Positions 1 to 49,743 of a stretch of DNA of 49,743 nucleotides are shown here, in pieces (the first letter of the stretch is position 1; the number at the start of each line of letters is the position of its first letter). The position numbers and the translations under genes are program-made. The notes beneath the pieces are model-generated. The model saw only the letters and a program-made list of their open reading frames with translations, was not told the DNA's origin and made no database searches. The stretch lies in IMG/VR virus record IMGVR_UViG_3300045988_138037. One strand, 5' to 3'. This DNA comes from a virus.

Positions 1-55
1 AAAAAGAATTAAAAGAATTAAAACTTACTAAAAACATCATCATACCTTTTCCTAA
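1..55. repeat. 55-bp terminal direct repeat identical to 49689..49743 (assembly overlap of a circular or circularly permuted genome)
   Basis: The string aaaaagaattaaaagaattaaaacttactaaaaacatcatcataccttttcctaa occurs at both window ends. Confidence 0.95.
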
Positions 56-89: not shown

Positions 90-2405
90 ATGAATGATAA
101 CTTTGAGGAGATAGAACACGCTTATAATACCCTTATAGATAATCATAATGGTGCGATAAAGCGTTTAGAAGAAGCTATAAACTCTATCCCAGAAATTGAA
201 GATTTAGTAGGTGTAAAAGGAGATAAAGGGGACAAAGGAGAACAAGGCGAACGTGGTGAGAAAGGTGAGAAGGGCGACAAAGGAGATAAGGGTGATAAAG
301 GAGATAGAGGTGAACCAGGTATACAAGGTATACAGGGTGTAAAAGGAGACAAGGGAGATAAAGGCGATAAGGGTGAAGATGGTGTTATCATATTTGAAGA
401 ATTAACACCAGAACAAAAAGCTACTCTTAAAGGTGATAAGGGGGATAGAGGAGAACAAGGTTTACCAGGTGAAAAAGGCGAGAAGGGTGATAATGGTATA
501 ACTCCAAACATTAAGGTTGGTAAAGTTGTAACTCTTGAGCCAACTGAACAAGCAAATGTTGAGAGAGTTGGCACGTTAGAAAACCCAACATTCAATTTCT
601 ATATTCCAAGAGGTCTTGATGGAAGTGGTGAAGGCTCTGGCGATGGGCACACTCACTCTAATTTAAGTGCATTAAACTCTATAACTCAATCTAAAATAAA
701 TGCGTGGGACGATAAAGCTCCTTCAAATCACTCACATACAGAATATGCAAGTAGTTCACATACACACAGTAATTATGCAAATACATCACATACACATACT
801 GAATACGCTTCAACTAATCATACACATAATTATGCAAGTGCATCACATACTCACTCTGATTACGCTAACAAAACGCATACACATACTGATTATGCTAATA
901 AAACACATACTCATAGTACAAGTGATATAAGTAATTTAAGTAGTTATGTTTCTAGTTTGATTACTAATGATACTTATATAAACTCATTAAAAAGCACTAT
1001 TGATACACTTTCTTCTGAACTTACAAAAGTAAAGACAGATATTGAAGCGTTAAAAAATAACTCTGGTAGTGCTAACATTCCTGTAACAGGCATTAACTGT
1101 TCTGAATGGGAAGTTAATTTACAAGTTGGACAAACAAGACAAATAATTGCAAGTGTTATTCCTTCAAGCGCCACAAACAAATTGATACATTGGTACTCTG
1201 ATAATACTCTTGCTGTTGATGTTAGTTCAAATGGTTTAATAACGGCAAAAGGTGTTGGTTATTCAAAGGTTACTGCTACAACAGATGATGGTGGACACAA
1301 ATATGATATTCGTGTTACCGTAACTGCAAGTAGTGGTGGAGGAAGTGGAAGTACAACTACCTCTGGAATAAAAGTAGCACCTGAAAGTGTTTCAATAGAA
1401 CGTGGTAAAACTGTTGACGTAACAATATCATTTGGAAGTGATGTTATAAACAAAAATATTGAGTGTATGAGTAGTAGTGGAGCTATTGCTAGTGTATCTG
1501 ATTTAGGAAGTCATAGATACAGAATAACAGGAGTAGGTCAAGGACAAACTTCAATAAGATTTAGAACTTCTGATGGGAAATTTGAGGTTTCTTGTTCTGT
1601 AACAGTTACTGCACCCTCAAGTGGTGGTGGAGGTGAAATGACTTCAAATGAGTACGAAGAGTCTTGTAAAAGTGAGTATATACTTGACAAAATGTACCCA
1701 ATGGGTCAAGCACACGAAGCCATACCTAACGGTAATATAACAGGTTGGAAACACAATAGTAGATGGGAAAACCAATATAGACCTACTGCTATGGCTCACA
1801 GTTGTGGTCAAAGTGGATGTCCAGGAACAGGTGCGTTTCAAGCACTAGGTTGTTGGTCTAATATATATAGAGTTGAAGGAACACCTTTTACTCAAAATAC
1901 AGGTGTTGAGATGAAGGATATAAAAGTTTATGGTTGGTATAATGGAGCTTGGGAATTAGTTCAACATCTACCTGTACCAAATGGTAACTTTTACGCAGAG
2001 TCATTTAGTGGAGACAGTAATAGATATTTTGGAGATAGCGTTAAACAATCTAGCACATCAAAAACTATAATACTTAGAGAGGCAAACAAGATTAATTCAG
2101 AAAACTGTATGTATCACCCATTTTCAAATATAAAGGCTTTTGATACTAAATACCAATACATTTATACTTGTATAGACTTACGTAAAGTTAAGTGGAATGA
2201 AAATGGTGTAGATGATAGAGACCAAACTCATTATTGCAGTAATTGTGGTGGAGATTGGTGGTTAAAAGAAGGGTTAATGTTCCACGATAGTTGGCAACAC
2301 AACAAAGGTGTATGTCAACCTAAGATGATTGAAATTACAAATGAATGGAGAAGGTTTAGTATGACTACTGTTCCGCAAGGTTGGTCAAACGGCTTCCCTC
2401 AATAA
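90..2405 (+). CDS. Collagen-like tail fibre / receptor-binding protein. The true start is probably 49682, across the junction.
   Basis: G-X-Y repeats ([18 protein letters not shown]...), eight HxH repeats (SHTHSNYA-type), a coiled coil, two Big_2-like Ig domains and a C-terminal Cys/Trp-rich domain. The frame is open from position 3 and no SD precedes the ATG at 90. Confidence 0.8.
210..383 (+). repeat. Collagen-like G-X-Y triplet tract (19 triplets); a second tract of 7 triplets lies at 432..497
   Basis: [58 protein letters not shown] read from the translation. Confidence 0.9.
648..914 (+). repeat. Array of eight His-x-His motifs with roughly 10-aa periodicity (xxHTHxxYA)
   Basis: GHTHS, NHSHT, SHTHS, SHTHT, NHTHN, SHTHS, THTHT and THTHS in the translation. 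Confidence 0.9.
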
Positions 2406-13752: not shown

Positions 13753-14439
13753 ATGAAAATAGGAATAGATATGGGTCATACATTAAGTGGAGAAGGAACG
13801 GGTTCTCAAGGTTGTGGTTACAAAGAACAAAACTTAACTAGAGAACTTGGTAAAATAGTAATAGAAATGCTTAAAAAAGAAGGTCATACTGTTTATGATT
13901 GTACAGTAGACAAATCAAGTAACAATGCTCAACAACTTATAGATAGAGTTAATAAAGCTAATAAACAACCACTAGATTTATTCGTGTCAATACACTTTAA
14001 CGCTTGTGTTAATGATGTGAAGGGTGATGGTCGTACAACAGGTACAGAAGTACTTTTACACTCTATGTCAAGTAAAGCGAAACCTTACGCAGAAAGAATA
14101 GTAAAGAAAATCGCAAATGTAGGTCTTAAAAATAGAGGAGTTAAAACACATAACGCATATGTACTTAAACATACTAAAGCACCTGCATTATTAATAGAGA
14201 CTTGCTTTATAGATGATAGAGATGATATGAATGTATACTTAAAAAGCCCTAGAAAGGTCGCTAAAGCGATTGTAGAAGGTATATTAGATAAAACTATAAC
14301 TGACGTTGTTGAAACGCCTAAAAATGGCTTCTATCGTGTTTTAGTGGGTAGTTATAAGGATAAAAATAACGCTATTAAAAGACAAGAAGAACTTAAATCA
14401 AAAGGTATAGAAGCATCGTTAATATACTTCCAAGAATAA
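13753..14439 (+). CDS. Endolysin: N-acetylmuramoyl-L-alanine amidase (Amidase_3-like) with a C-terminal SPOR domain
   Basis: GIDMGH..., SIHFNA and ETCFIDD motifs. The C-terminus FYRVLVGSYKDKNNAIKRQEELKSKGIEASLIY is SPOR-like. Confidence 0.85.
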   Translation: MKIGIDMGHTLSGEGTGSQGCGYKEQNLTRELGKIVIEMLKKEGHTVYDCTVDKSSNNAQQLIDRVNKANKQPLDLFVSIHFNACVNDVKGDGRTTGTEVLLHSMSSKAKPYAERIVKKIANVGLKNRGVKTHNAYVLKHTKAPALLIETCFIDDRDDMNVYLKSPRKVAKAIVEGILDKTITDVVETPKNGFYRVLVGSYKDKNNAIKRQEELKSKGIEASLIYFQE

Positions 14440-14442
14440 GAC

Positions 14443-14479
14443 AAAAAAAAAGACGAGTAGTTGGGTACTCGTCTTTTTG
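14443..14479. terminator. Bidirectional rho-independent terminator between convergent transcription units
   Basis: A-run, then a 9-bp stem agacgagta/tactcgtct with loop gttggg, then a T-run. Confidence 0.8.
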
Positions 14480-14707
14480 TTCTGAACTTATATATAGTTT
14501 TAATTTGTTGATATTATTTGAAAAATTACGTTGATGTCTTGGTAGTTTATACACTTACCGAGGTGTTTATCTACTCTTTCACGATTTACGTTATTCGAGT
14601 TACATCAACGATTTTAAATACTACATTTGATAAAAATTATTTTACAAAATGACTATTAATGATAATAAAATGTTATTTTTAAAAATTATATTTGGTCTTA
14701 CGACCAT

Positions 14708-14781
14708 TGGCAGGAGTGGTAAGAATTGAACTCACGTCTACGGTTTTGGAGACCGTTGTGTTACCATTACACCACACTCCT
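14708..14781 (-). tRNA. trnW: tRNA-Trp (anticodon CCA) with encoded CCA end
   Basis: The reverse complement AGGAGTGTGGTGTAATGGTAACACAACGGTCTCCAAAACCGTAGACGTGAGTTCAATTCTTACCACTCCTGCCA folds as a 74-nt cloverleaf. It has a 7-bp acceptor stem, anticodon loop CTCCAAA and T-loop TTCAATT. Confidence 0.9.
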
Positions 14782-15010
14782 ATATAAAAGAGGTAAAAAC
14801 CTCTGTTGACGTGGAATATAATTTCAAAGTGCGTTGTTTCGACCCAACGCACTTAGCTGAAAGGAGGTAAATGTTTGAATTTTCTCTTTAAATCAGTTAG
14901 AAGTGAATAGATCCATTTAACATTACAGAAACAATAGTTTTACTTTAAAAAAAATATAATCGCTAATAAGGAGGTGCAACAACATACGATTAAATGTTAT
15001 TACAGTATTA

Positions 15011-15039
15011 ATTATATACGTTCTTTTCTCCTATGTCAA
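15011..15039 (-). promoter_or_regulatory. Consensus sigma-70-type promoter (TTGACA-17 nt-TATAAT) driving the leader plus tRNA-Trp transcript
   Basis: The minus strand reads ttgacataggagaaaagaacgtatataat: -35 at 15039..15034 and -10 at 15016..15011. Confidence 0.7.
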
Positions 15040-15062
15040 TATTTTCCAAGTAAAAAGTGCAC

Positions 15063-15094
15063 AAAAAACTCTGTTTTTTATCAAATCAACAGAG
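15063..15094 (-). terminator. Rho-independent terminator after the 15097..15285 gene
   Basis: Stem ctctgtt/aacagag with a 12-nt loop, followed on the minus strand by TTTTTT. Confidence 0.6.
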
Positions 15095-15096
15095 AA

Positions 15097-15285
15097 TTAT
15101 TTATTTCTTCTATAATAATGTATTAAACACATATTTAGGGAGTTTGCTACACTTATTATATCGCACGATATAGAGTGTACTTCTTCGTTTGTATAATCGT
15201 CTTTATTACGTTCTTTTAACTCCTTTACTAACAAATCAATATCATTAACTAAATCCTCATATCTCGTAAAACTAAACCTGTTCAT
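15097..15285 (-). CDS. Hypothetical small protein (62 aa)
   Basis: The ATG at 15285 follows SD aaaaggag. The ORF-track start at 15339 is a TTG that coincides with a TTGACA box. Confidence 0.5.
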   Translation of the reverse strand: MNRFSFTRYEDLVNDIDLLVKELKERNKDDYTNEEVHSISCDIISVANSLNMCLIHYYRRNK

Positions 15286-15346
15286 TACTTTTCTCCTTTT
15301 TATTTTTAAATCTTTGATTTGAAAATGACCCAGTGTCAACGCTCTG

Positions 15347-15360
15347 TGCGTATATACGCA
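15347..15360. promoter_or_regulatory. Perfect 14-bp palindrome TGCGTATATACGCA (candidate operator)
   Basis: Self-complementary. It sits just upstream (minus sense) of TTGACA at 15339..15334 and shares the CGTATATACG core with the ACGT iterons near 40.4 kb. Confidence 0.45.
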
Positions 15361-15509
15361 TAGTTATACTTAAAACCTTTCTAAACAACTTCGTTGTTGT
15401 AAACTCGATAAACTCGTTTACAGGGAAGGAAGTATTGAGTTAAGTTTGTTACACGTTATTAACACGTTTCTTAACCCCCTACCCCCAAATACATTATAGC
15501 ATAGGTTTT

Positions 15510-15678
15510 TTGTCCACATATGTTATCCACAGAGTTATCCACAGATATTAACAACTTATCCACAGGTTTTGGATAACATAAAAAAGTGCTACACACGTTG
15601 CAATTACTTGTGTGTAGCTTTGTCGAAAAAAACTTATCCACAGATTTACTAAAAAGACTTGACAAGTTTTTGTCCACA
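15510..15678 (+). promoter_or_regulatory. Cluster of seven DnaA-box-like 9-mers: four perfect TTATCCACA, two TTGTCCACA, one inverted tttggataa
   Basis: Boxes at 15510-18, 15523-31, 15535-43, 15556-64, 15568-76 (inverted, 1 mismatch), 15634-42 and 15670-78. A 9-bp inverted repeat gctacacac/gtgtgtagc lies between them. Confidence 0.75.
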
Positions 15679-16101
15679 TACCTTTTCTGGGTATAATTTT
15701 ACTTCTATTCTCGGTAGTTCTTTGTCTAAACTTACGTGCATATCACGTACTAAAACCCACCTATCTTCTTTGAACGCTACGTGTTCTAGTGCGTCCATAA
15801 CTATTTTGTGCATATTGTGGCAATCCCTTCTACGTTTATCTGGGAAGTAATACGTTAATTCACATACTAACCACACACCTTCTTCTTCTAATTTGTAATT
15901 TTGTGATTTGACTGCATTATCTACAATCATCATCACCTTTTGCATATAATCTTGACCTTTTTTCGTCATAAACCTTCTACCACGTTTAAACATATAAAGA
16001 TGGTTTATACTCACCCCAAGAGGTATCACTACGTTTAATTCTTGATTTGGGTATTTAGGTTTTAATCTTATTAAGTCGTCCATACTCATTTCATCCCCCA
16101 T
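15649..16101 (-). CDS. rusA: RusA-family Holliday junction resolvase
   Basis: PDKRRRDCHNMHKIVMDALEHVAFKEDRWV aligns with E. coli RusA [31 protein letters not shown]. Confidence 0.85.
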   Translation of the reverse strand: MGDEMSMDDLIRLKPKYPNQELNVVIPLGVSINHLYMFKRGRRFMTKKGQDYMQKVMMIVDNAVKSQNYKLEEEGVWLVCELTYYFPDKRRRDCHNMHKIVMDALEHVAFKEDRWVLVRDMHVSLDKELPRIEVKLYPEKVCGQKLVKSF

Positions 16102-16290
16102 TTATTTGTAATATCTACAGAATTTTGCTTTTAATCTTGGAAAATATATTTTTTTTAATACATTTATTACTTCACAACTTATATATTCATATGTATGTGC
16201 AAATTTACAATTTTTACAACTTCTATGTTTTTTTCTACGTTTTTTATAATCTTCTTTAGCTTCTTCTAATGTCCATTCTTTTTTCTTCAT
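16102..16290 (-). CDS. Hypothetical small basic Cys-containing protein
   Basis: SD ggggggaaag; 62-aa ORF; CKNC...C motif. Confidence 0.45.
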   Translation of the reverse strand: MKKKEWTLEEAKEDYKKRRKKHRSCKNCKFAHTYEYISCEVINVLKKIYFPRLKAKFCRYYK

Positions 16291-16434: not shown

Positions 16435-16950
16435 TTAATACTTATTATCTTGTCTTTTGTGATTTTCTTTATTTTTGTCTTTATAGCACTTGTATAAATC
16501 TTCTATATTGTATCCACACTTATTAACTACTACTCCTAATACCAATAATATTTGGTTTAAATCTTCCCAATCTTTCTCGATAAACATATCGCTTATCATA
16601 CAATCTAGCATACCGATTAAATCATTCATATCATATTCATCTGTATTATAATCGCCTGGTTGCTTTTCTTCTACTAATTCAACTCTATTATCTATTGCTA
16701 TACTTAGTATAAAGTGTAGTACATCACATGCTTCTTCTAGTTGATTAGTTTTATTTTTGTTTTTCTTCCAATATTTAAAACTTTCTATCTCGTTTGCTAA
16801 TTCAAATAACTCTGTTTTTAAAGCTAAGAATTTCTCTATATTTAGGTTAGCGTCCGCAGGTATATCATTTTCTTTTTTTACTCTTGTGTCTAATTTTCTT
16901 TGTAAGCGTCTCATTTCGTTTAATTCTTCTTGTGTAAAAACTGTTCTCAT
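16435..16950 (-). CDS. Dimeric (all-alpha) dUTPase / NTP pyrophosphohydrolase family protein
   Basis: KFLALKTELFELANEIESFKYWK, EEACDVLHFILS and a C-terminal YKDKNKENHKRQDNKY resemble dUTPase_2-family motifs. Confidence 0.65.
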   Translation of the reverse strand: MRTVFTQEELNEMRRLQRKLDTRVKKENDIPADANLNIEKFLALKTELFELANEIESFKYWKKNKNKTNQLEEACDVLHFILSIAIDNRVELVEEKQPGDYNTDEYDMNDLIGMLDCMISDMFIEKDWEDLNQILLVLGVVVNKCGYNIEDLYKCYKDKNKENHKRQDNKY

Positions 16951-16972: not shown

Positions 16973-17332
16973 CTACATATCGCAAATATCTTGCTCGTAC
17001 TCTTTAATTATAACATTTTTTCTATTTTCTGCCAATGCTTTAAGCCCTAATTCACACGTTTGTATTATAGCACTTATACCTGCACAAGTTATACTGTCCT
17101 CGTTATGTCCGTGTACTTCTATATTCATATAACCGTCGCCTTTAGTTATGTTTATTTTAGTTATACCTTCTAGTTTTCTCAATTTTATATCACTCCTTTT
17201 TCTTCCACTTATTATACTTGATACGTGTCCTTGTGTTATTCCGTATTTTTTCGCTATATCTATTTGTTTTTCTCCATTAAGATATGCACTCTTTATCTTT
17301 TCTATTTCGTGATTTGTTAATTTAAACTCCAT
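16973..17332 (-). CDS. prp: Fusion of an N-terminal HTH domain with a Prp-like (ribosomal protein L27-processing) cysteine protease domain
   Basis: HTH: QIDIAKKYGITQGHVSSIISG. Prp catalytic His/Cys signature: EVHGHNEDSITCAGISAIIQT (compare S. aureus Prp GHADHGEYGHDIVCAGASAV). Confidence 0.7.
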   Translation of the reverse strand: MEFKLTNHEIEKIKSAYLNGEKQIDIAKKYGITQGHVSSIISGRKRSDIKLRKLEGITKINITKGDGYMNIEVHGHNEDSITCAGISAIIQTCELGLKALAENRKNVIIKEYEQDICDM

Positions 17333-17336
17333 TTTA

Positions 17337-18161
17337 TTACCCCCACATTTTCGCCATTAAAGTGTTGTACATAAGTGATAAAACTGTCATTACTCCTGTA
17401 TGACCCGTTCCAGATGCTACTAACACATCAAGCTCTTCTAAATCTTCAATTTTTACATCTCCACAAAGTTTACCTTCGTACATATTCATAGAACAATCTA
17501 TTATTATTTGTCCGTCTTTAAAATAACTCTTATCGAAGAATTTAGCTTTACCTATACCTGTTATAACTATATCTGCGTTTTGCATCTTCTCTTTTAAGTT
17601 TTTAGTTTTTGAATGACACATTGTAACAGTTGCATTTTCATCTGTAAGCATTATTTGAAGCGGTTTACCTATTAAATTACTTCTATTTACTATTACTACG
17701 TCTTTTCCTTCTAATTCTGTGATGTGAATTAACATATTTAAAACACCAAGAGCAGTACAAGGGTACATTATTTTACCGTTTTGAGTAGTTAATCTACCTA
17801 TTTGTTTAGTACCTAGACCGTCTACGTCTTTCTCCACATCAATAGTATCAAGAGTTTTACGCTCGTCTAAGTGTTTTGGAAGTGGCAATTGAACTATTAT
17901 ACCATTTGTATCACAATCTGTGTTGTAATACTCTATAATCATTTCTAAATCTCTTTGTGGTATATCGTTTTTTAATAACGTATGTTCAACTTCTATACCT
18001 AACTCTTTGCCTAATTTAATTTTGTTCTTAACATAAGAATTTGATGCTTTATCTCCTTCAACTTGTAATATAACTAATTTAGGAGCAATGCCTTTTGTCA
18101 TTGAAGCCTTAAACGCATCCTTTATTTCTTGTGCTATTTCTTTTGTATTTATTATATTCAT
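17337..18161 (-). CDS. folD: Bifunctional 5,10-methylene-tetrahydrofolate dehydrogenase/cyclohydrolase
   Basis: PKLVILQVEGDKASNSYVKNKIK, GIIVQLPLPKHL, KDVDG, PCTALG, VVIVNRSNLIGKPL and ATVTMCHSKT motifs. Confidence 0.85.
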   Translation of the reverse strand: MNIINTKEIAQEIKDAFKASMTKGIAPKLVILQVEGDKASNSYVKNKIKLGKELGIEVEHTLLKNDIPQRDLEMIIEYYNTDCDTNGIIVQLPLPKHLDERKTLDTIDVEKDVDGLGTKQIGRLTTQNGKIMYPCTALGVLNMLIHITELEGKDVVIVNRSNLIGKPLQIMLTDENATVTMCHSKTKNLKEKMQNADIVITGIGKAKFFDKSYFKDGQIIIDCSMNMYEGKLCGDVKIEDLEELDVLVASGTGHTGVMTVLSLMYNTLMAKMWG

Positions 18162-29091: not shown

Positions 29092-29769
29092 TCACCCCCA
29101 AGTTTGTGTCATTACTATTTCATTACTGAAATCTAGTATAGTTTCATTATATACTGTTTCACCATTTATGTAATTAAGTAACTTCCATATAGCGTGTGAT
29201 GTTATCGCTAATGCACTTGGTAAAACTGTTTGAGAAACTCCACAAGCACTTACTTCTGCCTCATCATCACTATAAAATGTTTGTTCATACATCTTTGTTT
29301 GTTCTCTGTTTTTCGGGTCAACTACATATATCCTACCTCCACGTAAATCCATACGTGTTTCTATTAACAAATCAATAGAAGGGTTATTTTTTATAGCTCT
29401 GTTATATATATCTTTTCTTGATTTCATAGTATCTGTAAGCATAAATACTATACCTTGCATTGGAACAGAGCCGTCTACCTTCTCATTTCTTGCATTTACA
29501 GTAAAGCCTGTGAATAACTTTATTATATTACGTATTGATAGAGCTTTGTTTCTATCTATATCTCTAACTCCAAACATCTGATTTGGTAAATTGTGCATAC
29601 CAACTTCATCAAAATCGTATATATGTAAGTTACTTAATCCCATTTTTGCAAGTGAGAAAGCAATCCAACTTCCTGTTGCTCCTGCACCTATTATATTTAT
29701 TTTAGTATTAAACTCCTCTGGGTTTAATATGTTGATTTGACGACTAAAATCATCCATTATTCTTGACAT
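29092..29769 (-). CDS. Minimal ThiF/MoeB-type E1-like adenylyltransferase
   Basis: Rossmann GxGxxG INIIGAGATGSWIAFSLAKMG, then IYDFDEVGMHNLPNQMF (D-x-D..NL.RQ-like) and LTDTMKSR. Confidence 0.7.
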   Translation of the reverse strand: MSRIMDDFSRQINILNPEEFNTKINIIGAGATGSWIAFSLAKMGLSNLHIYDFDEVGMHNLPNQMFGVRDIDRNKALSIRNIIKLFTGFTVNARNEKVDGSVPMQGIVFMLTDTMKSRKDIYNRAIKNNPSIDLLIETRMDLRGGRIYVVDPKNREQTKMYEQTFYSDDEAEVSACGVSQTVLPSALAITSHAIWKLLNYINGETVYNETILDFSNEIVMTQTWG

Positions 29770-32266: not shown

Positions 32267-33706
32267 TTATAATTCCTCTCTTTCTTCTAACTCTTCTTCG
32301 TAACAATCTTCGCACATTCCTTCTTTTTCTTCTTGACAGTCTGTACAGTACGTATATCCACACTCTTTGCATTGAAATGTATCTTCTTTTCTTACTGCAT
32401 CTCCACATTCTGCACAATCTACAAACAGTTCTTCATAGCAATCTTCACAATACCATTTATCATTTGTGAAGTTCATTTCATCCTTTCTACACTCTTCACC
32501 ACACTCACAACAAGTTTCAATTAAGTCTGAATAACAATCATCACAATGCCATTCATTGTCTATTAAGCTCATTTCATCCTTTCTACACTCTTCACCACAC
32601 TCATAACAAGTTGCAATTAATTCACAATAACAATCATCACAGTAAACATCATCTCCATACCAAGTCATATCATTGTTATGTGCTTTTTCATCACAATTAT
32701 CACAACGGCTATAATCATTTTCATAACATCTTTCACATACATACATACTATTATTATCTATCCAATAAGCGTGGTCATCACACATATGGTCTCCACAATC
32801 TTCGCAATAAAATGCACTATCTTCATCTAATTCCTCATCACATATATGGCAAACTTTGCACTCTCTATCATATGGATTTTCTAAATCATTGCCTCCTTCG
32901 TCTATACAATCCCAATTACGTATGTATGCTCCTGCTGCATCATCTGTATTAACTTGTTGTAAGAAGTTTAAAACAACTATAAACGAAGCATATATCTCGT
33001 AGTTGTTCATATTCTCAACAAGCATAGACCCTGCACTACCCCAACACGCTTCTCCATTTTCTCCATTAACGTGTGGGTGTGGGTCTTTATCTGTCCAATA
33101 TGATTTTCTGTTATAATCCTCATCTAAACCATTTATATAACAAGTCATATCGTCAAAATCAAAACTTAAAAGATATTTATTACCTTTAAACTTGTTACCT
33201 TTCTCATCATATATATCTATGTAATCGGTTTTTATTTCAACTACTTTACCTGTTGGTCTCGCTACTGCACTTACTACATATTTATGGCTTAATATAGCTT
33301 CCATATCACTTGTATAATCTCTACCTTCACCTTCACTACTTAATACTTTTACTCTGCTCATCGCATTTTTGTATGAATTCCAAGCAACATCCATATATTC
33401 TTTATATCTTTTTATATCTCTAAGGTATTCTTGTTCTTCATTTTTAGCTCTTTCTAAAGCCTTTTTATTATCTTTCAAAGCTATCTCATTAAACGCTTTG
33501 CTTAACTCTTTAACTCTATCTTCCATTGTCTTTTCTTTCCTTTCAACTAATTCAAATCTTTCCATTAAATGTCTCTCACTTGGATACTCAACTAAATTCA
33601 TCCAACTGTTACTTAATATCTCTTTAACAGTAGCAGTATCTCCTACTACCATTTTCCCAGAATTTCCATATACTCTTCTAACCACATCTCCTACTTCAAA
33701 TATCAT
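32267..33706 (-). CDS. E2 (UBC)-like domain protein fused to a C-terminal array of CxxC zinc ribbons (RING-like)
   Basis: YLLSFDFDD...DPHPHVNGENGEACWGSAG resembles UBC HPN-x(5-7)-C. The C-terminal 200 aa carry about 15 CxxC pairs, including a 96-nt tandem duplication. Confidence 0.5.
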   Translation of the reverse strand: MIFEVGDVVRRVYGNSGKMVVGDTATVKEILSNSWMNLVEYPSERHLMERFELVERKEKTMEDRVKELSKAFNEIALKDNKKALERAKNEEQEYLRDIKRYKEYMDVAWNSYKNAMSRVKVLSSEGEGRDYTSDMEAILSHKYVVSAVARPTGKVVEIKTDYIDIYDEKGNKFKGNKYLLSFDFDDMTCYINGLDEDYNRKSYWTDKDPHPHVNGENGEACWGSAGSMLVENMNNYEIYASFIVVLNFLQQVNTDDAAGAYIRNWDCIDEGGNDLENPYDRECKVCHICDEELDEDSAFYCEDCGDHMCDDHAYWIDNNSMYVCERCYENDYSRCDNCDEKAHNNDMTWYGDDVYCDDCYCELIATCYECGEECRKDEMSLIDNEWHCDDCYSDLIETCCECGEECRKDEMNFTNDKWYCEDCYEELFVDCAECGDAVRKEDTFQCKECGYTYCTDCQEEKEGMCEDCYEEELEEREEL

Positions 33707-33889: not shown

Positions 33890-34708
33890 TTAAGCATTTA
33901 TTTCTGCTATTAATCTTTGTAAGAACATTATTTTATTGTTTATAGCGTGAGCTTCTTCTATGTAAAATCTGTAAGACTTTTCTAAATCTTCTAGCTCTTT
34001 ATTTAAAACATCCATAGCTTTACTATCTTTTGACTCAACTTCTATTTCTCTTACATCAACTACTTCTTCTCTAACTTCTCTTATATCAACTACTTCTTCT
34101 CCATTAAACCCATCAACAATCTCGTTATAAACACTTAAAAACATATCTTCTTCAACTACTAATGTTTCATTACCAACTTCTATTTGTAAAAAGTTATCTC
34201 CACACATATTTATACTGTCTGTATTTATTACTTGTGGAAGTTTTACACCTAATAATATCGTTACTTCTTCTTGTGTACAATCTGTTTTTCTAAAACTAGC
34301 ATTACCTTTTATCATCTTCATAGCAACAAGTAAGTTACCATTGTTTATTCTTGTATCAAGTGCTACCTTCTCACCGTCTAATCTTACCTCGTGGTTAGAT
34401 ACACCTATATTAGCTCTTTCAAATATTTCGTAAGCAGTATCTCCTTCTGTGTACTCAACAACTTCTAATCTACCTGGCATCATACCAACCTTTATGTTTG
34501 GCATATTACCTTTTATCATTTTCATAGCAACTAATAAATTTCCATTGTGTATAGTTCTGTCTAAATCTATCTTTTCTCCGTCTAATCTTATTTCGTGATT
34601 AGATAACTCTACATCTGCTATTTCAAATATTTCTCTTGCAGTTGCTCCTTCGTTTGTAACTACCTCTACTAATCTACCTGGCATCATTCCTACTTTAATT
34701 TTTAACAT
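33890..34708 (-). CDS. Tandem ubiquitin-like (beta-grasp, ThiS/MoaD-like) domain protein with a C-terminal coiled-coil extension
   Basis: Two 68-aa repeats: (M)xKIKVGMMPGRL.VV...G.TA.EIFE.A.....NHE(I/V)RLDGEK..LD..I.NGNLLVAMKMIKGN. Confidence 0.6.
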   Translation of the reverse strand: MLKIKVGMMPGRLVEVVTNEGATAREIFEIADVELSNHEIRLDGEKIDLDRTIHNGNLLVAMKMIKGNMPNIKVGMMPGRLEVVEYTEGDTAYEIFERANIGVSNHEVRLDGEKVALDTRINNGNLLVAMKMIKGNASFRKTDCTQEEVTILLGVKLPQVINTDSINMCGDNFLQIEVGNETLVVEEDMFLSVYNEIVDGFNGEEVVDIREVREEVVDVREIEVESKDSKAMDVLNKELEDLEKSYRFYIEEAHAINNKIMFLQRLIAEINA

Positions 34709-39034: not shown

Positions 39035-39083
39035 TTTAATTTCCTCCTTATGTACGTAACAACGCACTACTTAATTAATATAT

Positions 39084-39134
39084 ATTTATACTTGCAACAC
39101 ACACCCTTTAGGGTGTACTCCCCAAAACGGTTTT
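39084..39134 (-). promoter_or_regulatory. Copy 2 of the conserved ~52-bp hairpin element, upstream of gene 38522..39034
   Basis: atttatacttgcaacacacaccctttagggtgtactccccaaaacggtttt versus copy 1: 2 substitutions and a 1-nt indel. Confidence 0.6.
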
Positions 39135-39339
39135 CAAAACAATAAATACATTAGCCGATATACTTGTGATTAGAGTTAGAAAGATTTGATAATGTGTAAA
39201 TGCTTTGCGAAAATTAATTATAATTAATTTTCTAGGTTTGAACGTAGTGAAAACCTATAATAAGATACGTATTATAATGTTATAAAAGAAGTATATAAAA
39301 AGGAGTAGAATAACTCGTAAATTGATGTGAAATTTAACA

Positions 39340-40010
39340 TAATGTGTACGTGTGGTGTGTACTTGTAGTGAATGTGTATGTGAATGTGTAAATTCACTTG
39401 GTGAAGTGTGTTCTTGTGGTAGGTGGGAAATAGGGGGCGTAGCCCCAAACGTACTGCACATATGCGTGGGAGGTAGTTACGTATTACCTAACGTTGTGGA
39501 AGCGTTGTGTGAACTTCCTAGAGCGTGTGAGATACGTTGTGTCTACAAGTTGTGTATGTGCGTGGTGGACGGAGTTCAAAACGAACGAATGTGAGGCTTT
39601 GGGCGAAGTCATAAAGCGAAGCTCAACACGAGGACTACGTTGCTCGAGTGTTTGGGCGGAGCGTAACGGCGAAGCCGTGGACAAATCACTACACTAAATA
39701 CGGTAAATACGTTATTTATACGTGTCTCAAAACTCGATATCGAAAAGCCGAAGGCATACTTGAACAAACACGCCTTATCGTTTGTGAACGCCCTCTGCAA
39801 GAGCACACACACACTTGACCAATGTTATACCACCCCCAGGGTAACGGAAAACGACGCACCATATTTATGTGTGTATGTGTGTGTTGTGTGTGGGTGGTAG
39901 TGTGTCGAACGAAAACATACTCCTTTCCCAACGAGTTCCCAACAAGACCCCCCATACGAGAAAACAGGAGTCCCTCATCAGTATACATAGATAACGTGTA
40001 TATAGGTGTA
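39340..40010. ncRNA. ~670-nt GC-rich non-coding island; candidate large structured RNA (strand and class undetermined)
   Basis: Only short overlapping ORFs on both strands. Local hairpins ggggc-gta-gcccc, acggc-gaa-gccgt and gcc-gaa-ggc. Long-range complementarity taccaccc/gggtggta, and a CA-run against a GT-run. Confidence 0.35.
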
Positions 40011-40221
40011 TAAATGTGAAAAGCCCCCTACAAACGTAGAGAGCTTCTTTTTACTATTTGAAACATTCAAAAATCTAGAATTTATGTGTTGTATAAAAAT
40101 ATCGTATATATATTATAACACAAACGCCGAAAAAGTATGTAACAAAATAGTTACAAAATTGTAACTTTTTAAAAACGTAGTGTTTTCAACACTTTCACAA
40201 ATCAGAAGAAAATACAAGGGC

Positions 40222-40250
40222 TTGACAACAATTTTTTTATAAGTTACTAT
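40222..40250 (+). promoter_or_regulatory. Candidate sigma-70-type promoter for the rightward (late/structural) unit
   Basis: TTGACA, a 17-nt spacer, then TACTAT. Confidence 0.4.
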
Positions 40251-40424
40251 ATACGTATAAATACGTGTAGTAAACGTGTATGAAACGTTCTATAAACCTC
40301 CGTTGGAGGTTTAGTGATTTTCATTACATTCAAATCACACAAATATAAACATATAAATACGTATCTTCCTGTTACTTAAATCTTTGATTTGAGTAACTAA
40401 AACGAGTGAAACGAGTTTTATAGA

Positions 40425-40476
40425 ACGTATTAATAACGTATATAACACGTATATAAACGTGTATATAACGTATAAA
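40425..40476 (+). repeat. Array of five ACGT(G)TAT(ATAA) direct repeats at 10-12 bp spacing, just upstream of the first rightward ORF
   Basis: ACGT cores at 40425, 40436, 40447, 40457 and 40468. A similar array has cores at 40253, 40263, 40274 and 40285. Confidence 0.7.
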
Positions 40477-40487
40477 GGGGTGAAAGA

Positions 40488-49681: not shown

Positions 49682-49743
49682 ATGAAAGAAAAAGAATTAA
49701 AAGAATTAAAACTTACTAAAAACATCATCATACCTTTTCCTAA
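49682..49743 (+). CDS. 5' end of the collagen-like tail fibre gene; continues in frame across the circular junction into 90..2405
   Basis: The ATG at 49682 is preceded by SD gaaagga. [32 protein letters not shown] joins MNDNFEE... in the same frame (32 extra codons). Confidence 0.65.
   Translation, partial: MKEKELKELKLTKNIIIPFP
49689..49743. repeat. 55-bp terminal direct repeat identical to 1..55
   Basis: Exact string identity with the window start. Confidence 0.95.

What the first reader, a model, noticed from the sequence alone, without database searches (positions are those of the whole stretch)
15510..15678. Dense cluster of seven DnaA boxes at the distal end of the replication operon
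Within 169 bp there are four perfect TTATCCACA 9-mers (15523, 15535, 15556, 15634), two TTGTCCACA (15510, 15670) and one inverted 1-mismatch box (tttggataa, 15568). A 9-bp inverted repeat (gctacacac/gtgtgtagc) lies among them. The 68-aa ORF drawn over this region is just the boxes translated (VDK/VDN repeats). The phage encodes a helicase, a primase and DnaE, but I recognised no origin-binding initiator. The cluster could therefore be an origin that recruits host DnaA. Alternatively it could act as a DnaA sink, like datA, that perturbs host initiation.
Basis: partly seen in the sequence, partly recalled or inferred. Interest (0 to 1): 0.7.

Follow-up and report, generated by a model that had tools for sequence, protein, structure and literature searches.

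The report
DnaA-box array in phage origin slot
A gut phage keeps seven binding sites for the bacterial replication-starter protein DnaA at fixed positions in front of a small structured RNA gene. Sister phages carry their own replication-initiator gene in exactly that genome slot, so this phage probably uses the host's initiator to start or time its own DNA copying.

Summary
There are four perfect TTATCCACA boxes, the only four in this complete 49.7-kb genome, plus three one-mismatch boxes within 169 bp. No simulated genome came close to that density.

The boxes are under selection. Across seven diverged sister lineages they sit at the same distances from a conserved extended -10 promoter. Box columns are 89% identical and the spacers 43%.

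That promoter drives a ~165-nt non-coding RNA. Its stems are supported by compensatory changes, and it has no Rfam match.

The unit "boxes + promoter + RNA" lies between rusA and tRNA-Trp. In syntenic relatives the same slot holds RepA_N plus iterons, or a double winged-helix protein plus iterons. No relative has both kinds of module. The slot therefore looks like the replication-origin cassette.

The region is not an oriC-like origin: it has no AT-rich unwinding element and no DnaA-trios. A pure DnaA sink is unlikely, because the box geometry is fixed and box number ranges from 2 to 10.

Best reading (about 0.5): host DnaA gates or assists a transcription- or RNA-dependent phage origin. Such an origin would resemble lactococcal phage c2 ori or ColE1, with DnaA boxes added.

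Main rival: the boxes form a DnaA-responsive promoter for an sRNA that has nothing to do with replication. Nothing has been tested experimentally.

The parts
15510..15678 (+). DnaA-box array. Boxes lie at 15510 (TTGTCCACA), 15523, 15535 and 15556 (TTATCCACA), 15568 (- strand, TTATCCAAA), 15634 (TTATCCACA) and 15670 (TTGTCCACA, inside the last codons of rusA). Read in the sense of rusA and the ncRNA (- strand) they are TGTGGATAA.
   Evidence: Searches give presence and enrichment. One search shows fixed distances to the -10 element across lineages. One search gives 89% identity in box columns against 43% in spacers.
15589..15619 (-). 9-bp inverted repeat (GCTACACAC-N13-GTGTGTAGC) followed by TTTTTT on the - strand. 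It is a terminator-like hairpin after rusA. Its loop carries the motif AGTAATTGCAAC, which recurs in diverged relatives.
   Evidence: fold, -17.1 kcal/mol, z -1.5; relatives.
15621..15627 (+). Consensus Spo0A box TGTCGAA (extended form TTTGTCGAA at 15619-15627), lying inside the array.
   Evidence: the only TTTGTCGAA in the genome; a consensus box is present in 11 of the 13 sequences examined, at -126 to -129 from the -10 element in 9 of them. The 0A-box consensus is taken from PMC2731898.
15658..15666 (-). Conserved motif CTTGTCAAG next to the most upstream box, followed by a T-run. Its function is unknown.
   Evidence: present in every type A and A' relative (CCTGTCAAG in some).
15493..15503 (-). 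Extended -10 promoter TATGcTATAAT (TRTG + TATAAT) with no -35 element. A box overlaps the -35 position in this clade. In other lineages the nearest box is centred near -41.
   Evidence: promoter columns are 86% identical across lineages, and every type A and A' relative has it.
15322..15486 (-). Predicted ~165-nt structured non-coding RNA. Stem-loop 1 spans 15399-15421, stem-loop 2 (GAA loop) 15384-15398, and stem-loop 3 15344-15363. The 3' hairpin plus U-run spans 15322-15338. The RNA also contains AACGTGT x2 and CGAGTTTA x2 repeats.
   Evidence: z -2.4; 11 pairs with compensatory changes against 2.6 in shuffles. L158 ends in a canonical GC-rich terminator; no Rfam match.
15306..15322 (.). 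Near-palindrome TTAAATCTTTGATTTGA. It marks the right-hand border of the swappable module in most slot types examined and is repeated at 40376-40392, upstream of the late operon.
15649..16101 (-). rusA (Holliday-junction resolvase), the last gene of the early/replication operon. In relatives its stop codon is the TAA of a perfect box. Here TAA has become CAA, which adds 7 codons.
   Evidence: Pfam RusA, E 9.9e-13.
15097..15285 (-). 62-aa ORF downstream of the module. It is variable cargo and not part of the module.
   Evidence: no family; replaced by other sequence in L131 and L137, present in L139.
14708..14781 (-). tRNA-Trp with its own consensus promoter (15039 to 15011). It is the conserved downstream neighbour of the slot.

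Best explanation
The seven boxes are functional binding sites for the host initiator DnaA. They form the upstream half of a self-contained ~350-bp module (window ~15322-15678). The module consists of the DnaA-box array, an activator-type extended -10 promoter with no -35 element, and a ~165-nt structured non-coding RNA.

The module occupies the slot that holds the replication-origin cassette in this phage family. The most likely mechanism is as follows. DnaA, bound at fixed positions (centred near -41, -53 and -74, plus a distal pair near -150 and -185), switches on or assists the promoter. The transcript, or the act of transcribing, then opens and/or primes the origin, as in lactococcal phage c2 or ColE1. 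DnaA may also help load the phage DnaB-type helicase. A conserved Spo0A box inside the array would allow shut-off in sporulating hosts.

Shown: the boxes exist, are enriched and are conserved in position. The promoter motif is conserved. The RNA stems covary. The module is mutually exclusive with Rep-plus-iteron cassettes.

Inferred: DnaA binding, promoter activity, any role of the RNA in replication, and helicase loading.
For: (1) Enrichment. The four perfect boxes are the only ones in the genome. Seven boxes fall within 169 bp, against a maximum of 4 in 1000 simulated genomes.

(2) Selection. In seven type A lineages (RusA 66-82% identical to the window), an ungapped alignment anchored on the -10 element gives 89% identity in box columns, 43% in spacers and 86% in the promoter. 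Gaps from box end to the -10 element of 24, 36, 57, ~135 and ~166-171 nt recur across lineages. Many box variants fall at the degenerate positions of TTWTNCACA: TTATTCACA, TTTTCCACA, TTATACACA.

(3) RNA. There are four helices with 91.7% of cells paired. Eleven pairs have changes on both sides, against 2.6 +/- 1.2 in shuffles (0 of 500) and 1-3 in the slid controls. G-U pairs fit the - strand. L158 ends in a canonical terminator.

(4) Slot logic. All relatives share the order DnaE, PD-(D/E)XK, dUTPase, rusA, [slot], (tRNA-Trp where detected), endolysin.
- Boxes + promoter + RNA: window, L131, L137, L139, L141, L156, L158, L162, L163, L164, L166.
- Promoter + RNA without boxes: L157, L159.
- RepA_N: L129, L155, L161, L165 (Pfam E 1.2e-14; PDB RepA N-terminal domains E 7e-19). 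Direct repeats follow it in L129 and in L155/L161 (by eye).
- Double winged-helix protein with direct repeats after it: L143, L160; L005 follows the same gene order but its contig ends first.
The RNA block gave no hit in any of the five Rep-type phages searched (L129 with L152, L143, L155, L160, L161). The exact-motif search also finds none in L165.

(5) The type B phage L129/L152 has homologues of nearly every early gene of the window and no box cluster in 24 kb. The slot is therefore the only replication-related difference found in the 24 kb compared.

(6) No initiator or DnaA-like domain was found in the window's early ORFs.

(7) Precedent. The c2-type origin is a promoter plus a non-coding transcript, with three non-homologous origin types at one locus, and it works without phage proteins (PMC7150918).
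Against: There is no AT-rich unwinding element in or next to the module. There is no run of DnaA-trios.

GC skew gives no independent support, and its polarity at 15 kb is that of a terminus.

Two lineages (L157, L159) keep the promoter and RNA without any DnaA box, so DnaA cannot be indispensable to the core element.

Most of the RNA covariation rests on one divergent lineage (L166) plus a few single pairs.

The slot could simply be a hypervariable cargo site.

A 1.4-kb non-coding region at 39.07-40.49 kb lies at the divergent early/late junction and the skew minimum. It has not been excluded as the real origin.

The 3' end of the RNA is weakly defined in the window's own clade (4-bp stem).

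The host is unknown. The endolysin gives only a weak Clostridium-like hint.
Confidence: 0.5

Rival explanations
1. The boxes form a DnaA-responsive promoter for a regulatory small RNA that has no role in replication. The array makes expression of the ncRNA depend on the host's DnaA (replication or stress) status, as at B. subtilis sda or dnaA. The RNA acts on host or phage gene expression. The rusA to tRNA slot is merely a hot spot for unrelated cargo.
For: Boxes sit at fixed distances from a conserved extended -10 promoter that lacks a -35 element. The nearest box is centred near -41, a position typical of activators. The RNA is structured and has a terminator. Type A' keeps the promoter and RNA but has different upstream repeats, the pattern expected when only the regulator is swapped. 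The ORF downstream of the module varies.
Against: This does not explain why the RNA module never co-occurs with Rep-plus-iteron cassettes at the same site in 20 sampled lineages. It also does not explain where a phage with its own helicase, primase and DnaE, but no initiator, starts replication.
Confidence: 0.25
2. A classical oriC-like origin. DnaA oligomerises on the boxes and melts an adjacent unwinding element directly, and the helicase is loaded there. The promoter and RNA are incidental.
For: The cluster meets the usual criterion of at least three boxes less than 100 bp apart. It contains a head-to-tail pair 3 bp apart (15523 and 15535), like BUS boxes 6/7. No phage initiator was found. 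The slot logic also applies here.
Against: There is no DnaA-trio run of 4 or more triplets on either strand in 15440-15760. By eye the only 3-triplet run (15699-15707) is 20 nt from a box and lies inside rusA coding sequence. Duplex stability of the array and the RNA block is at or above the genome mean; the nearest weak spots are 400-850 bp away. The part conserved best across lineages is the promoter and RNA, not any AT-rich segment.
Confidence: 0.08
3. A DnaA sink, like datA or the B. subtilis DnaA-box clusters. Hundreds of replicating phage copies titrate DnaA and block host re-initiation.
For: There are seven high-affinity boxes on a multicopy genome. B. subtilis DnaA-box clusters outside oriC do restrain initiation (PMC3245932). 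Some titration is an almost unavoidable side effect.
Against: A sink needs box number, not geometry. Here positions relative to the promoter are fixed. Box number ranges from 2 (L166) to 8-10 (L156). Close relatives manage with none (L157, L159, and all Rep-type phages).
Confidence: 0.07
4. The sites are not for DnaA. They are operators for a phage-encoded protein, or an inert relic of captured host oriC DNA, or a T5-like injection-stop or membrane-anchoring signal.
For: Many early ORFs have no assigned function. T5-like phages carry conserved DnaA-box pairs 3 bp apart in a region that is not an origin (10.1101/866236).
Against: The sites match the universal DnaA consensus exactly, and many variants fall at its degenerate positions. 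No Bac_DnaA_C or similar domain is present in the phage. Strong purifying selection rules out a relic. The array is internal to a circularly assembled genome and not in a terminal repeat.
Confidence: 0.05

Closest known systems
Origin of lactococcal prolate phages (Ceduovirus c2, bIL67 and 923 types): promoter PE1 plus the non-coding transcript PE1-T
   Same: A non-coding region in which a promoter drives a structured non-coding transcript thought to start replication through transcription. No phage initiator is needed. Several non-homologous origin types occupy one conserved locus (PMC7150918).
   Different: The c2 origin lies at the divergent early/late junction, whereas this module lies at the convergent junction. 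I know of no DnaA-box array reported for c2 (from memory, not checked). There is no sequence similarity. The window phage encodes its own helicase, primase and DnaE. The alternative cassettes here include protein initiators.
Bacterial oriC basal unwinding system (DnaA-box pair + DnaA-trios + AT-rich element)
   Same: A cluster of consensus DnaA boxes that includes a tandem pair 3 bp apart (PMC8287927 and PMC7561715). A Spo0A box lies among the DnaA boxes; Spo0A~P blocks initiation by binding 0A boxes at replication origins (PMC2731898).
   Different: No DnaA-trios and no unwinding element. Most boxes point away from the promoter and RNA side according to the E. coli R1 geometry.
ColE1/pBR322-type RNA-primed origin with an auxiliary DnaA box (from memory)
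   Same: A promoter-driven structured RNA acts as origin determinant, with DnaA site(s) that can help primosome or helicase assembly.
   Different: RNA II is about 550 nt, has a single DnaA box downstream, needs RNase H and Pol I, and is restricted to enterobacteria. Here an array of 2-10 boxes lies upstream of the promoter. Priming by the RNA is not shown.
Phage lambda: DnaA-dependent transcriptional activation of ori-lambda from pR
   Same: Host DnaA modulates a promoter whose transcription activates a phage origin (PMC3985674; PMC5499656 and PMC8477408).
   Different: Lambda has its own initiator (O and P) and iterons, and its DnaA sites are few and lie downstream of pR.
DnaA-box clusters outside oriC (B. 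subtilis DBCs, E. coli datA) and DnaA-regulated promoters (dnaA, sda)
   Same: Intergenic clusters of consensus boxes next to promoters, which both regulate transcription and titrate DnaA (PMC3245932).
   Different: Those are chromosomal. Here the cluster is on a phage, tied to an ncRNA gene, and interchangeable with Rep cassettes.
T5-like phage injection-stop region
   Same: DnaA boxes conserved across a phage family, arranged in pairs 3 bp apart among inverted repeats (10.1101/866236).
   Different: The T5 boxes lie in the terminal repeat of a linear genome, far from the mapped origins, and their proposed role is membrane arrest of injection. The phage family is unrelated and the host is Gram-negative.
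RepA_N / iteron origins (pSK41, pTZ2162) found in sister phages L129, L155, L161 and L165
   Same: They occupy the identical slot, bounded in most of them by the same palindrome.
   Different: They are protein-initiator based. The window has no RepA_N gene, and no initiator-type iteron array was found.
Host master-regulator sites on phage genomes (Spo0A boxes of phi29/Nf; CtrA sites in alphaproteobacterial phages)
   Same: A phage wires its development to a host cell-cycle or differentiation regulator through consensus binding sites (PMC2731898; PMC9437464, listed).
   Different: The regulator here is DnaA (plus possibly Spo0A), and the target is an ncRNA/origin module.

Membership tests
oriC-type DnaA-dependent origin (BUS) | Cluster of at least three DnaA boxes (TTWTNCACA, up to 1 mismatch) spaced less than 100 bp apart on average | tested here: met
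   Seven boxes within 169 bp. Criterion as quoted in PMC7561715.
oriC-type DnaA-dependent origin (BUS) | Tandem box pair no more than 3 bp apart | tested here: met
   Boxes 15523-15531 and 15535-15543 are separated by GAG.
oriC-type DnaA-dependent origin (BUS) | At least three DnaA-trios (3'-[G/A]A[T/A]-5') within 16 nt of the box pair, preceded by a GC cluster | tested here: not met
   No run of 4 or more triplets on either strand in 15440-15760. By eye the only 3-triplet run (15699-15707) is 20 nt from box 15670 and lies in rusA coding sequence.
oriC-type DnaA-dependent origin (BUS) | Adjacent AT-rich DNA unwinding element | tested here: not met
   The least stable 60-bp windows in the array and the RNA block fall at the 45th and 32nd percentile of the genome. 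The nearest weak spots are at 15077, 14630 and 16132.
oriC-type DnaA-dependent origin (BUS) | DnaA binding and DnaA-dependent melting or autonomous replication | not testable with these tools
   Needs EMSA, P1 nuclease or origin-cloning assays.
Transcription-dependent phage origin (c2 PE1-T type) | Promoter driving a non-coding, structured transcript in a non-coding region | tested here: met
   The extended -10 promoter is conserved in all 13 type A/A' sequences. The stems covary. No ORF or RBS is conserved.
Transcription-dependent phage origin (c2 PE1-T type) | Alternative non-homologous origin cassettes at one conserved locus | tested here: met
   Four slot types lie between rusA and the endolysin gene (tRNA-Trp present where detected), and the RNA and Rep types are mutually exclusive.
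Transcription-dependent phage origin (c2 PE1-T type) | Supports replication in cis without a phage initiator; the transcript is essential | not testable with these tools
   Experimental.
Transcription-dependent phage origin (c2 PE1-T type) | Sequence or structural homology to the c2, bIL67 or 923 origins | not tested
   No comparison with Ceduovirus genomes was run. Megablast of 14400-16200 against GenBank phages found nothing.
DnaA-regulated promoter | DnaA boxes overlapping or at a fixed activator/repressor distance from a promoter | tested here: met
   Gaps from box end to the -10 element of 24, 36 and 57 nt recur in most type A lineages. The window clade adds a box over the -35 position.
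DnaA-regulated promoter | Transcript level depends on DnaA | not testable with these tools
   Needs a reporter or RNA-seq with DnaA depletion or overproduction.
datA / DBC-type DnaA titration locus | Many high-affinity boxes whose number, not exact placement, matters | tested here: not met
   Placement is fixed while number varies from 2 to 10, and the boxes are dispensable in sister phages.
datA / DBC-type DnaA titration locus | Lowers free or ATP-bound DnaA and delays host initiation | not testable with these tools
   Experimental.
Iteron/Rep origin (RepA_N, Rep_3 etc.) | Initiator gene with adjacent iterons | tested here: not met
   No Rep family hit in any early ORF of the window. No iteron array apart from the DnaA boxes and two 2-copy repeats. 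Met in relatives L129, L155, L161, L165, L143 and L160.
T5-type injection-stop DnaA-box region | Box pairs inside inverted repeats within the terminal repeat of a T5-like genome | tested here: not met
   The genome assembles as a circle with only a 55-bp overlap. The array is internal, and the phage is a DnaE-encoding siphovirus-like phage of a low-GC host.
Known RNA families (Rfam 15) | Covariance-model match to the ncRNA | tested here: not met
   Only tRNA-Trp was found in 14300-16200 at E<=1.

The most novel reading that the evidence does not exclude
This may be a previously undescribed type of phage replication origin. It would be a compact cassette in which an array of host-DnaA sites, held at fixed helical positions and carrying an embedded Spo0A site, licenses a promoter. 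The ~165-nt structured transcript from that promoter would open or prime the origin for the phage's own DnaB/DnaG/DnaE replisome. The cassette would be freely exchangeable in evolution with RepA_N-iteron and winged-helix-iteron cassettes. In two lineages it is paired with a 60-aa protein carrying an RNA-DNA-hybrid-binding domain in place of the DnaA boxes.
Probability: 0.35. Interest if true: 0.85.

Novelty: new variant of a known kind. Interest (0 to 1): 0.72.

Why it matters
How virulent phages that carry a replisome but no initiator start replication is mostly unknown. This family offers a natural swap experiment. The same backbone carries a host-DnaA array plus ncRNA, or an ncRNA with a hybrid-binding protein, or RepA_N with iterons, or another DNA-binding protein with iterons.

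If the module is the origin, three things follow:
- Phages can outsource initiation to DnaA, and possibly sense Spo0A, which couples phage replication to the host cell cycle and to sporulation.
- A new structured RNA class would be tied to initiation.
- The result would give a compact, testable element for vectors in gut Clostridia-like hosts.

Consensus DnaA-box pairs also occur in at least 120 IMG/VR contigs, and 69 of these carry clusters. Host-initiator sites on phage genomes may therefore be a widespread feature that has received little study.

Tried and rejected
- Megablast of 14400-16200 against GenBank phages found no match.
- The distant DnaE-phage relatives GBK1, DZ1 and MT835501 have no perfect box and no cluster, so the array is not a feature of the wider group.
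- GC skew was rejected as evidence because it follows the coding strand.
- Searches for an unwinding element and for DnaA-trios were negative.
- RNAalifold on eight close sequences gave no covariation. Signal appeared only after adding diverged relatives.
- The RNA core motif was searched in IMG/VR and in 185,579 GTDB genomes. Only the same phage turned up, and no genome hit.
- The L143/L160 double winged-helix protein could not be identified as a Rep. It gave only generic HTH hits.
- An antisense sigma-70-like site (TTGTCC-16-TATAAT, 15670-15697) and the TTGACA inside CTTGTCAAG were considered as + strand promoters. They were dropped because the spacing and -10 element are not conserved in relatives.
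- A short leader peptide in the RNA 5' region was considered and dropped: RBS spacing is poor, and the apparent similarity comes from the AACGT repeats.
- Two scripts that tried to quantify AT-rich spacers upstream of the array in relatives failed on pattern matching and were abandoned.
- No covariance model was built.
- Host assignment is weak: the endolysin is at most 45% identical to Clostridium proteins.
Full report
**1. The observation**

The window is a complete, circularly assembled phage genome of 49,688 bp with a 55-bp terminal overlap. Its GC content is about 32%.

The four perfect TTATCCACA boxes are the only ones in the genome: 0.52 are expected and no shuffle reaches 4. Seven boxes with at most one mismatch fall within 169 bp. 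In 1000 Markov-simulated genomes the best window held at most 4.

The 9-bp inverted repeat is real. On the - strand a T-run follows it, so it looks like a terminator after rusA. The 68-aa ORF is the boxes read in frame and is not conserved.

**2. Context**

Late genes on the + strand end with an amidase endolysin at 14439, followed by a bidirectional terminator.

The early/replication operon runs on the - strand from about 39.07 kb down to rusA (15649-16101). It contains a DnaB-type helicase, DnaG primase, DnaE, a PD-(D/E)XK nuclease, FolD, a dUTPase and an SSB-like protein, among others.

No ORF in this region matches any initiator family or a DnaA domain.

Reading the - strand downstream of rusA, the order is:
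- one box;
- the hairpin and T-run;
- five boxes;
- an extended -10 promoter, TATGcTATAAT (15503-15493), with no -35 element;
- about 165 nt of non-coding sequence;
- a near-palindrome (15306-15322);
- a 62-aa ORF;
- a consensus promoter and tRNA-Trp.

**3. Relatives show the boxes are under selection**

GenBank phages are only distantly related (DnaE about 34% identical), and three of them have no box clusters.

Metagenomes and IMG/VR hold a family of syntenic phages from human-gut and other samples, with RusA 62-99% identical to the window.

In near-identical genomes, several of the box positions that vary stay inside TTWTNCACA. One box reads TTATCCACA, TTATTCACA or TTTTCCACA. Box 15510 is a perfect box in L131.

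In L137 and L139 the rusA stop codon is the TAA of a perfect box. In the window TAA has become CAA, which lengthens RusA by 7 residues. This explains the one-mismatch box at 15670.

Diverged lineages L163, L156, L158, L164, L141, L162 and L166 (82% down to 62%) keep arrays of 2-10 boxes. The distance from box end to the -10 hexamer is almost invariant: 24, 36, 57, ~135 and ~166-171 nt.

In an ungapped alignment anchored on the -10 element, box columns are 89% identical, spacers 43% and the promoter 86%. This is a clear phylogenetic footprint of sites with constrained geometry.

**4. The boxes belong to a larger module that encodes a structured RNA**

The ~190 nt after the promoter are conserved even where RusA is only 62-69% identical.

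An alignment of 13 distinct sequences supports four helices. Of all cells, 91.7% are paired. Eleven pairs have changes on both sides, against 2.6 +/- 1.2 in shuffles (0 of 500) and 1-3 in the slid controls.
- In L166, helix 1 changes at five of its six pairs (GTAAAC/GTTTAC becomes TGTAGT/ACTACA).
- In L166, helix 2 changes at three pairs (ACAAC-GAA-GTTGT becomes AGTTAC-GAA-GTAACT), and the loops are retained.
- G-U pairs fit the - strand transcript.

The 3' hairpin differs in sequence between lineages but is always followed by a U-run. In L158 it is a canonical GCCCC-aca-GGGGC plus T7 terminator.

The window RNA folds with a z-score of -2.4. Rfam has no match. The core motif is absent from IMG/VR (apart from this phage) and from GTDB genomes.

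I therefore read 15486 to ~15322 (- strand) as a ~165-nt non-coding RNA gene. Caveats: most of the covariation comes from one lineage, and the window's own 3' hairpin is weak.

**5. The slot**

Every relative has the order DnaE, PD-(D/E)XK, dUTPase, rusA, [slot], (tRNA-Trp in the five relatives where it was detected), convergent endolysin.

| Type | Slot content | Lineages |
|---|---|---|
| A | DnaA boxes + promoter + RNA | window, L131, L137, L139, L141, L156, L158, L162, L163, L164, L166 |
| A' | Same promoter and RNA, no DnaA boxes; other inverted repeats upstream; a divergent 59-60-aa ORF with the Cauli_VI (RNase H1-type RNA/DNA-hybrid-binding) domain | L157, L159 |
| B | RepA_N protein, then short direct repeats | L129, L155, L161, L165 |
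| C | 214-218-aa double winged-helix protein, then 23-bp direct repeats | L143, L160; probably L005, whose contig ends first |

For type B, the RepA_N match is Pfam E 1.2e-14, and the match to solved RepA N-terminal domains 4pql, 5kbj and 4pt7 is E 7e-19. Direct repeats follow the gene in L129 (15-bp) and, by eye, in L155 and L161. For type C. L160 additionally has three DnaA boxes at the rusA stop.

Most slot types end at the same palindrome, TTTCAAATCAAAGATTTAAA; it was not found in L165, and L158 carries a variant. The RNA block gave no hit in any of the five Rep-type phages searched by blastn. An exact-motif search also found none in L165.

The type B phage L129/L152 has homologues of nearly every early gene of the window and no box cluster in 24 kb.

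The types are interleaved along the RusA identity scale, so cassettes have been exchanged repeatedly.

The simplest reading is that this slot holds the origin/initiator cassette. On that reading, "DnaA boxes + promoter + RNA" is the initiator-less alternative to "Rep + iterons".

**6. What it is not**

There is no easily melted segment in or beside the module. No DnaA-trio run is present. By the E. coli R1 geometry (from memory), most boxes face away from the RNA. It is therefore not an oriC-like basal unwinding system.

The GC-skew turn at 15 kb coincides with the strand switch and has terminus polarity.

A pure DnaA sink does not explain the fixed geometry, the range of 2-10 boxes, or the box-free sister phages.

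**7. Mechanism proposed** (inferred, not shown)

DnaA bound at about -41, -53 and -74, plus the distal pair, activates or gates the promoter, which lacks a -35 element. In the window clade an extra box over the -35 position may add repression at high DnaA levels.

Transcription, or the structured and purine-rich transcript itself, then opens or primes the origin. DnaA may also help load the phage helicase.

Known parallels:
- the c2-type origin, with the PE1 promoter and PE1-T transcript and three origin types at one locus (PMC7150918);
- ColE1/pBR322 RNA II with a DnaA box (from memory);
- DnaA-dependent transcriptional activation of ori-lambda.

The hybrid-binding-domain ORF of type A' fits a mechanism involving an R-loop, but this is only suggestive.

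A consensus Spo0A box (window + strand TGTCGAA at 15621-15627; the only TTTGTCGAA in the genome) is present in 11 of the 13 sequences. It sits at -126 to -129 in nine of them. This recalls the 0A boxes at replication origins and on phi29 (PMC2731898). The host may be Clostridium-like (endolysin at most 45% identical). If so, sporulation-linked shut-off is plausible.

**8. Alternatives and verdict**

The strongest rival is a DnaA-responsive sRNA promoter with no replication role, sitting in a hypervariable cargo slot. A second uncertainty is the 1.4-kb non-coding region at 39.07-40.49 kb. It shares the palindrome and the AACGTRT and AAACGAG motifs with the module and could be the real origin or the packaging site.

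My estimates:
- The boxes are functional DnaA sites: about 0.85.
- They control or assist the adjacent promoter: about 0.7.
- The module is the replication origin, or part of it: about 0.5.

DnaA boxes on phages are known (T5, lambda, P1). Consensus box pairs occur in at least 120 IMG/VR contigs, and 69 of these carry clusters. The bare cluster is therefore not new in itself. The new elements are its fixed coupling to an ncRNA gene and its interchangeability with Rep cassettes.

Noticed in passing
window 39070-40487: A 1.4-kb non-coding region lies at the divergent early/late junction, which is also the cumulative GC-skew minimum. It has a GT-rich, locally GC-rich stretch (39340-39900) and dense ACGT-containing 11-bp-period repeats (40247-40297 and 40419-40474). 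It shares the palindrome TTAAATCTTTGATTTGA (40376-40392), AAACGAG repeats and AACGTRT repeats with the DnaA/ncRNA module. It could be the packaging site, the late-promoter control region or an alternative origin.
   Followed up: partly
L157:3103-3285 and L159:2321-2500: Sister phages that keep the promoter and ncRNA but lack DnaA boxes encode a 59-60-aa protein just upstream and divergent from the promoter. It has the Cauli_VI (RNase H1 N-terminal, RNA/DNA-hybrid-binding) domain.
   Followed up: partly
window 15619-15627 (and the same relative position in relatives): A consensus Spo0A box (TTTGTCGAA) lies inside the DnaA-box array and is present in 11 of the 13 sequences examined (at -126 to -129 in nine). 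This suggests that sporulation status also feeds into the module.
   Followed up: partly
window 15649-15678; L137 and L139: In relatives the rusA stop codon is the TAA of a perfect DnaA box (TGTGGATAA). In the window TAA has become CAA, which extends RusA by 7 residues into the conserved CTTGTCAAG motif.
   Followed up: yes
L129:4476-4984; L155, L161, L165; L143:4820-5561; L160: Syntenic phages carry a short RepA_N protein (N-terminal domain only, 116-129 aa) or a 214-218-aa double winged-helix protein, followed by direct repeats where examined, between rusA and tRNA-Trp. RepA_N is a plasmid-type initiator, here inside apparently virulent phage genomes.
   Followed up: partly
L006-L125 (IMG/VR contigs): The double box TTATCCACAGAGTTATCCACA occurs in at least 120 viral contigs across all GC ranges. 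Of these, 69 have clusters of 3-10 boxes. A group of nine high-GC phages has them near the large terminase gene. L040 has six tandem TGTGGATAActc units, with a TAGTAGTAGTAATAA trio-like run and an AT-rich stretch about 70 nt upstream.
   Followed up: partly
window 1-55 and 49689-49743: A 55-bp exact terminal overlap shows that the window is a circularly assembled complete genome of 49,688 bp.
   Followed up: yes
window 201-512 and 714-945 (ORF 90-2405): The 771-aa ORF 90-2405 contains long 9-nt-period repeats that look like collagen-like Gly-X-Y repeats, and a 30/57-nt-period repeat that appears His/Thr-rich.
   Followed up: no
window 34301-34708 and 32435-32641: A 204-nt tandem duplication (75-79% identical) lies inside ORF 33890-34708. 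A 96-nt unit repeated 2.2 times lies inside ORF 32267-33706. Both ORFs have no family assignment.
   Followed up: no
window 17337-18161, 29092-29769, 16435-16950: The early operon carries auxiliary metabolic genes: FolD (methylene-THF dehydrogenase/cyclohydrolase), a ThiF-family protein and a dUTPase_2. FolD is absent from relatives L129, L143 and L005.
   Followed up: no
window 16973-17332: A 119-aa protein combines a weak sigma-70 region-4/HTH match with a weak Prp-like match. It sits where GBK1 and DZ1 encode a phage sigma factor, so it may be the late-gene regulator that binds the shared palindrome and AACGT motifs.
   Followed up: no
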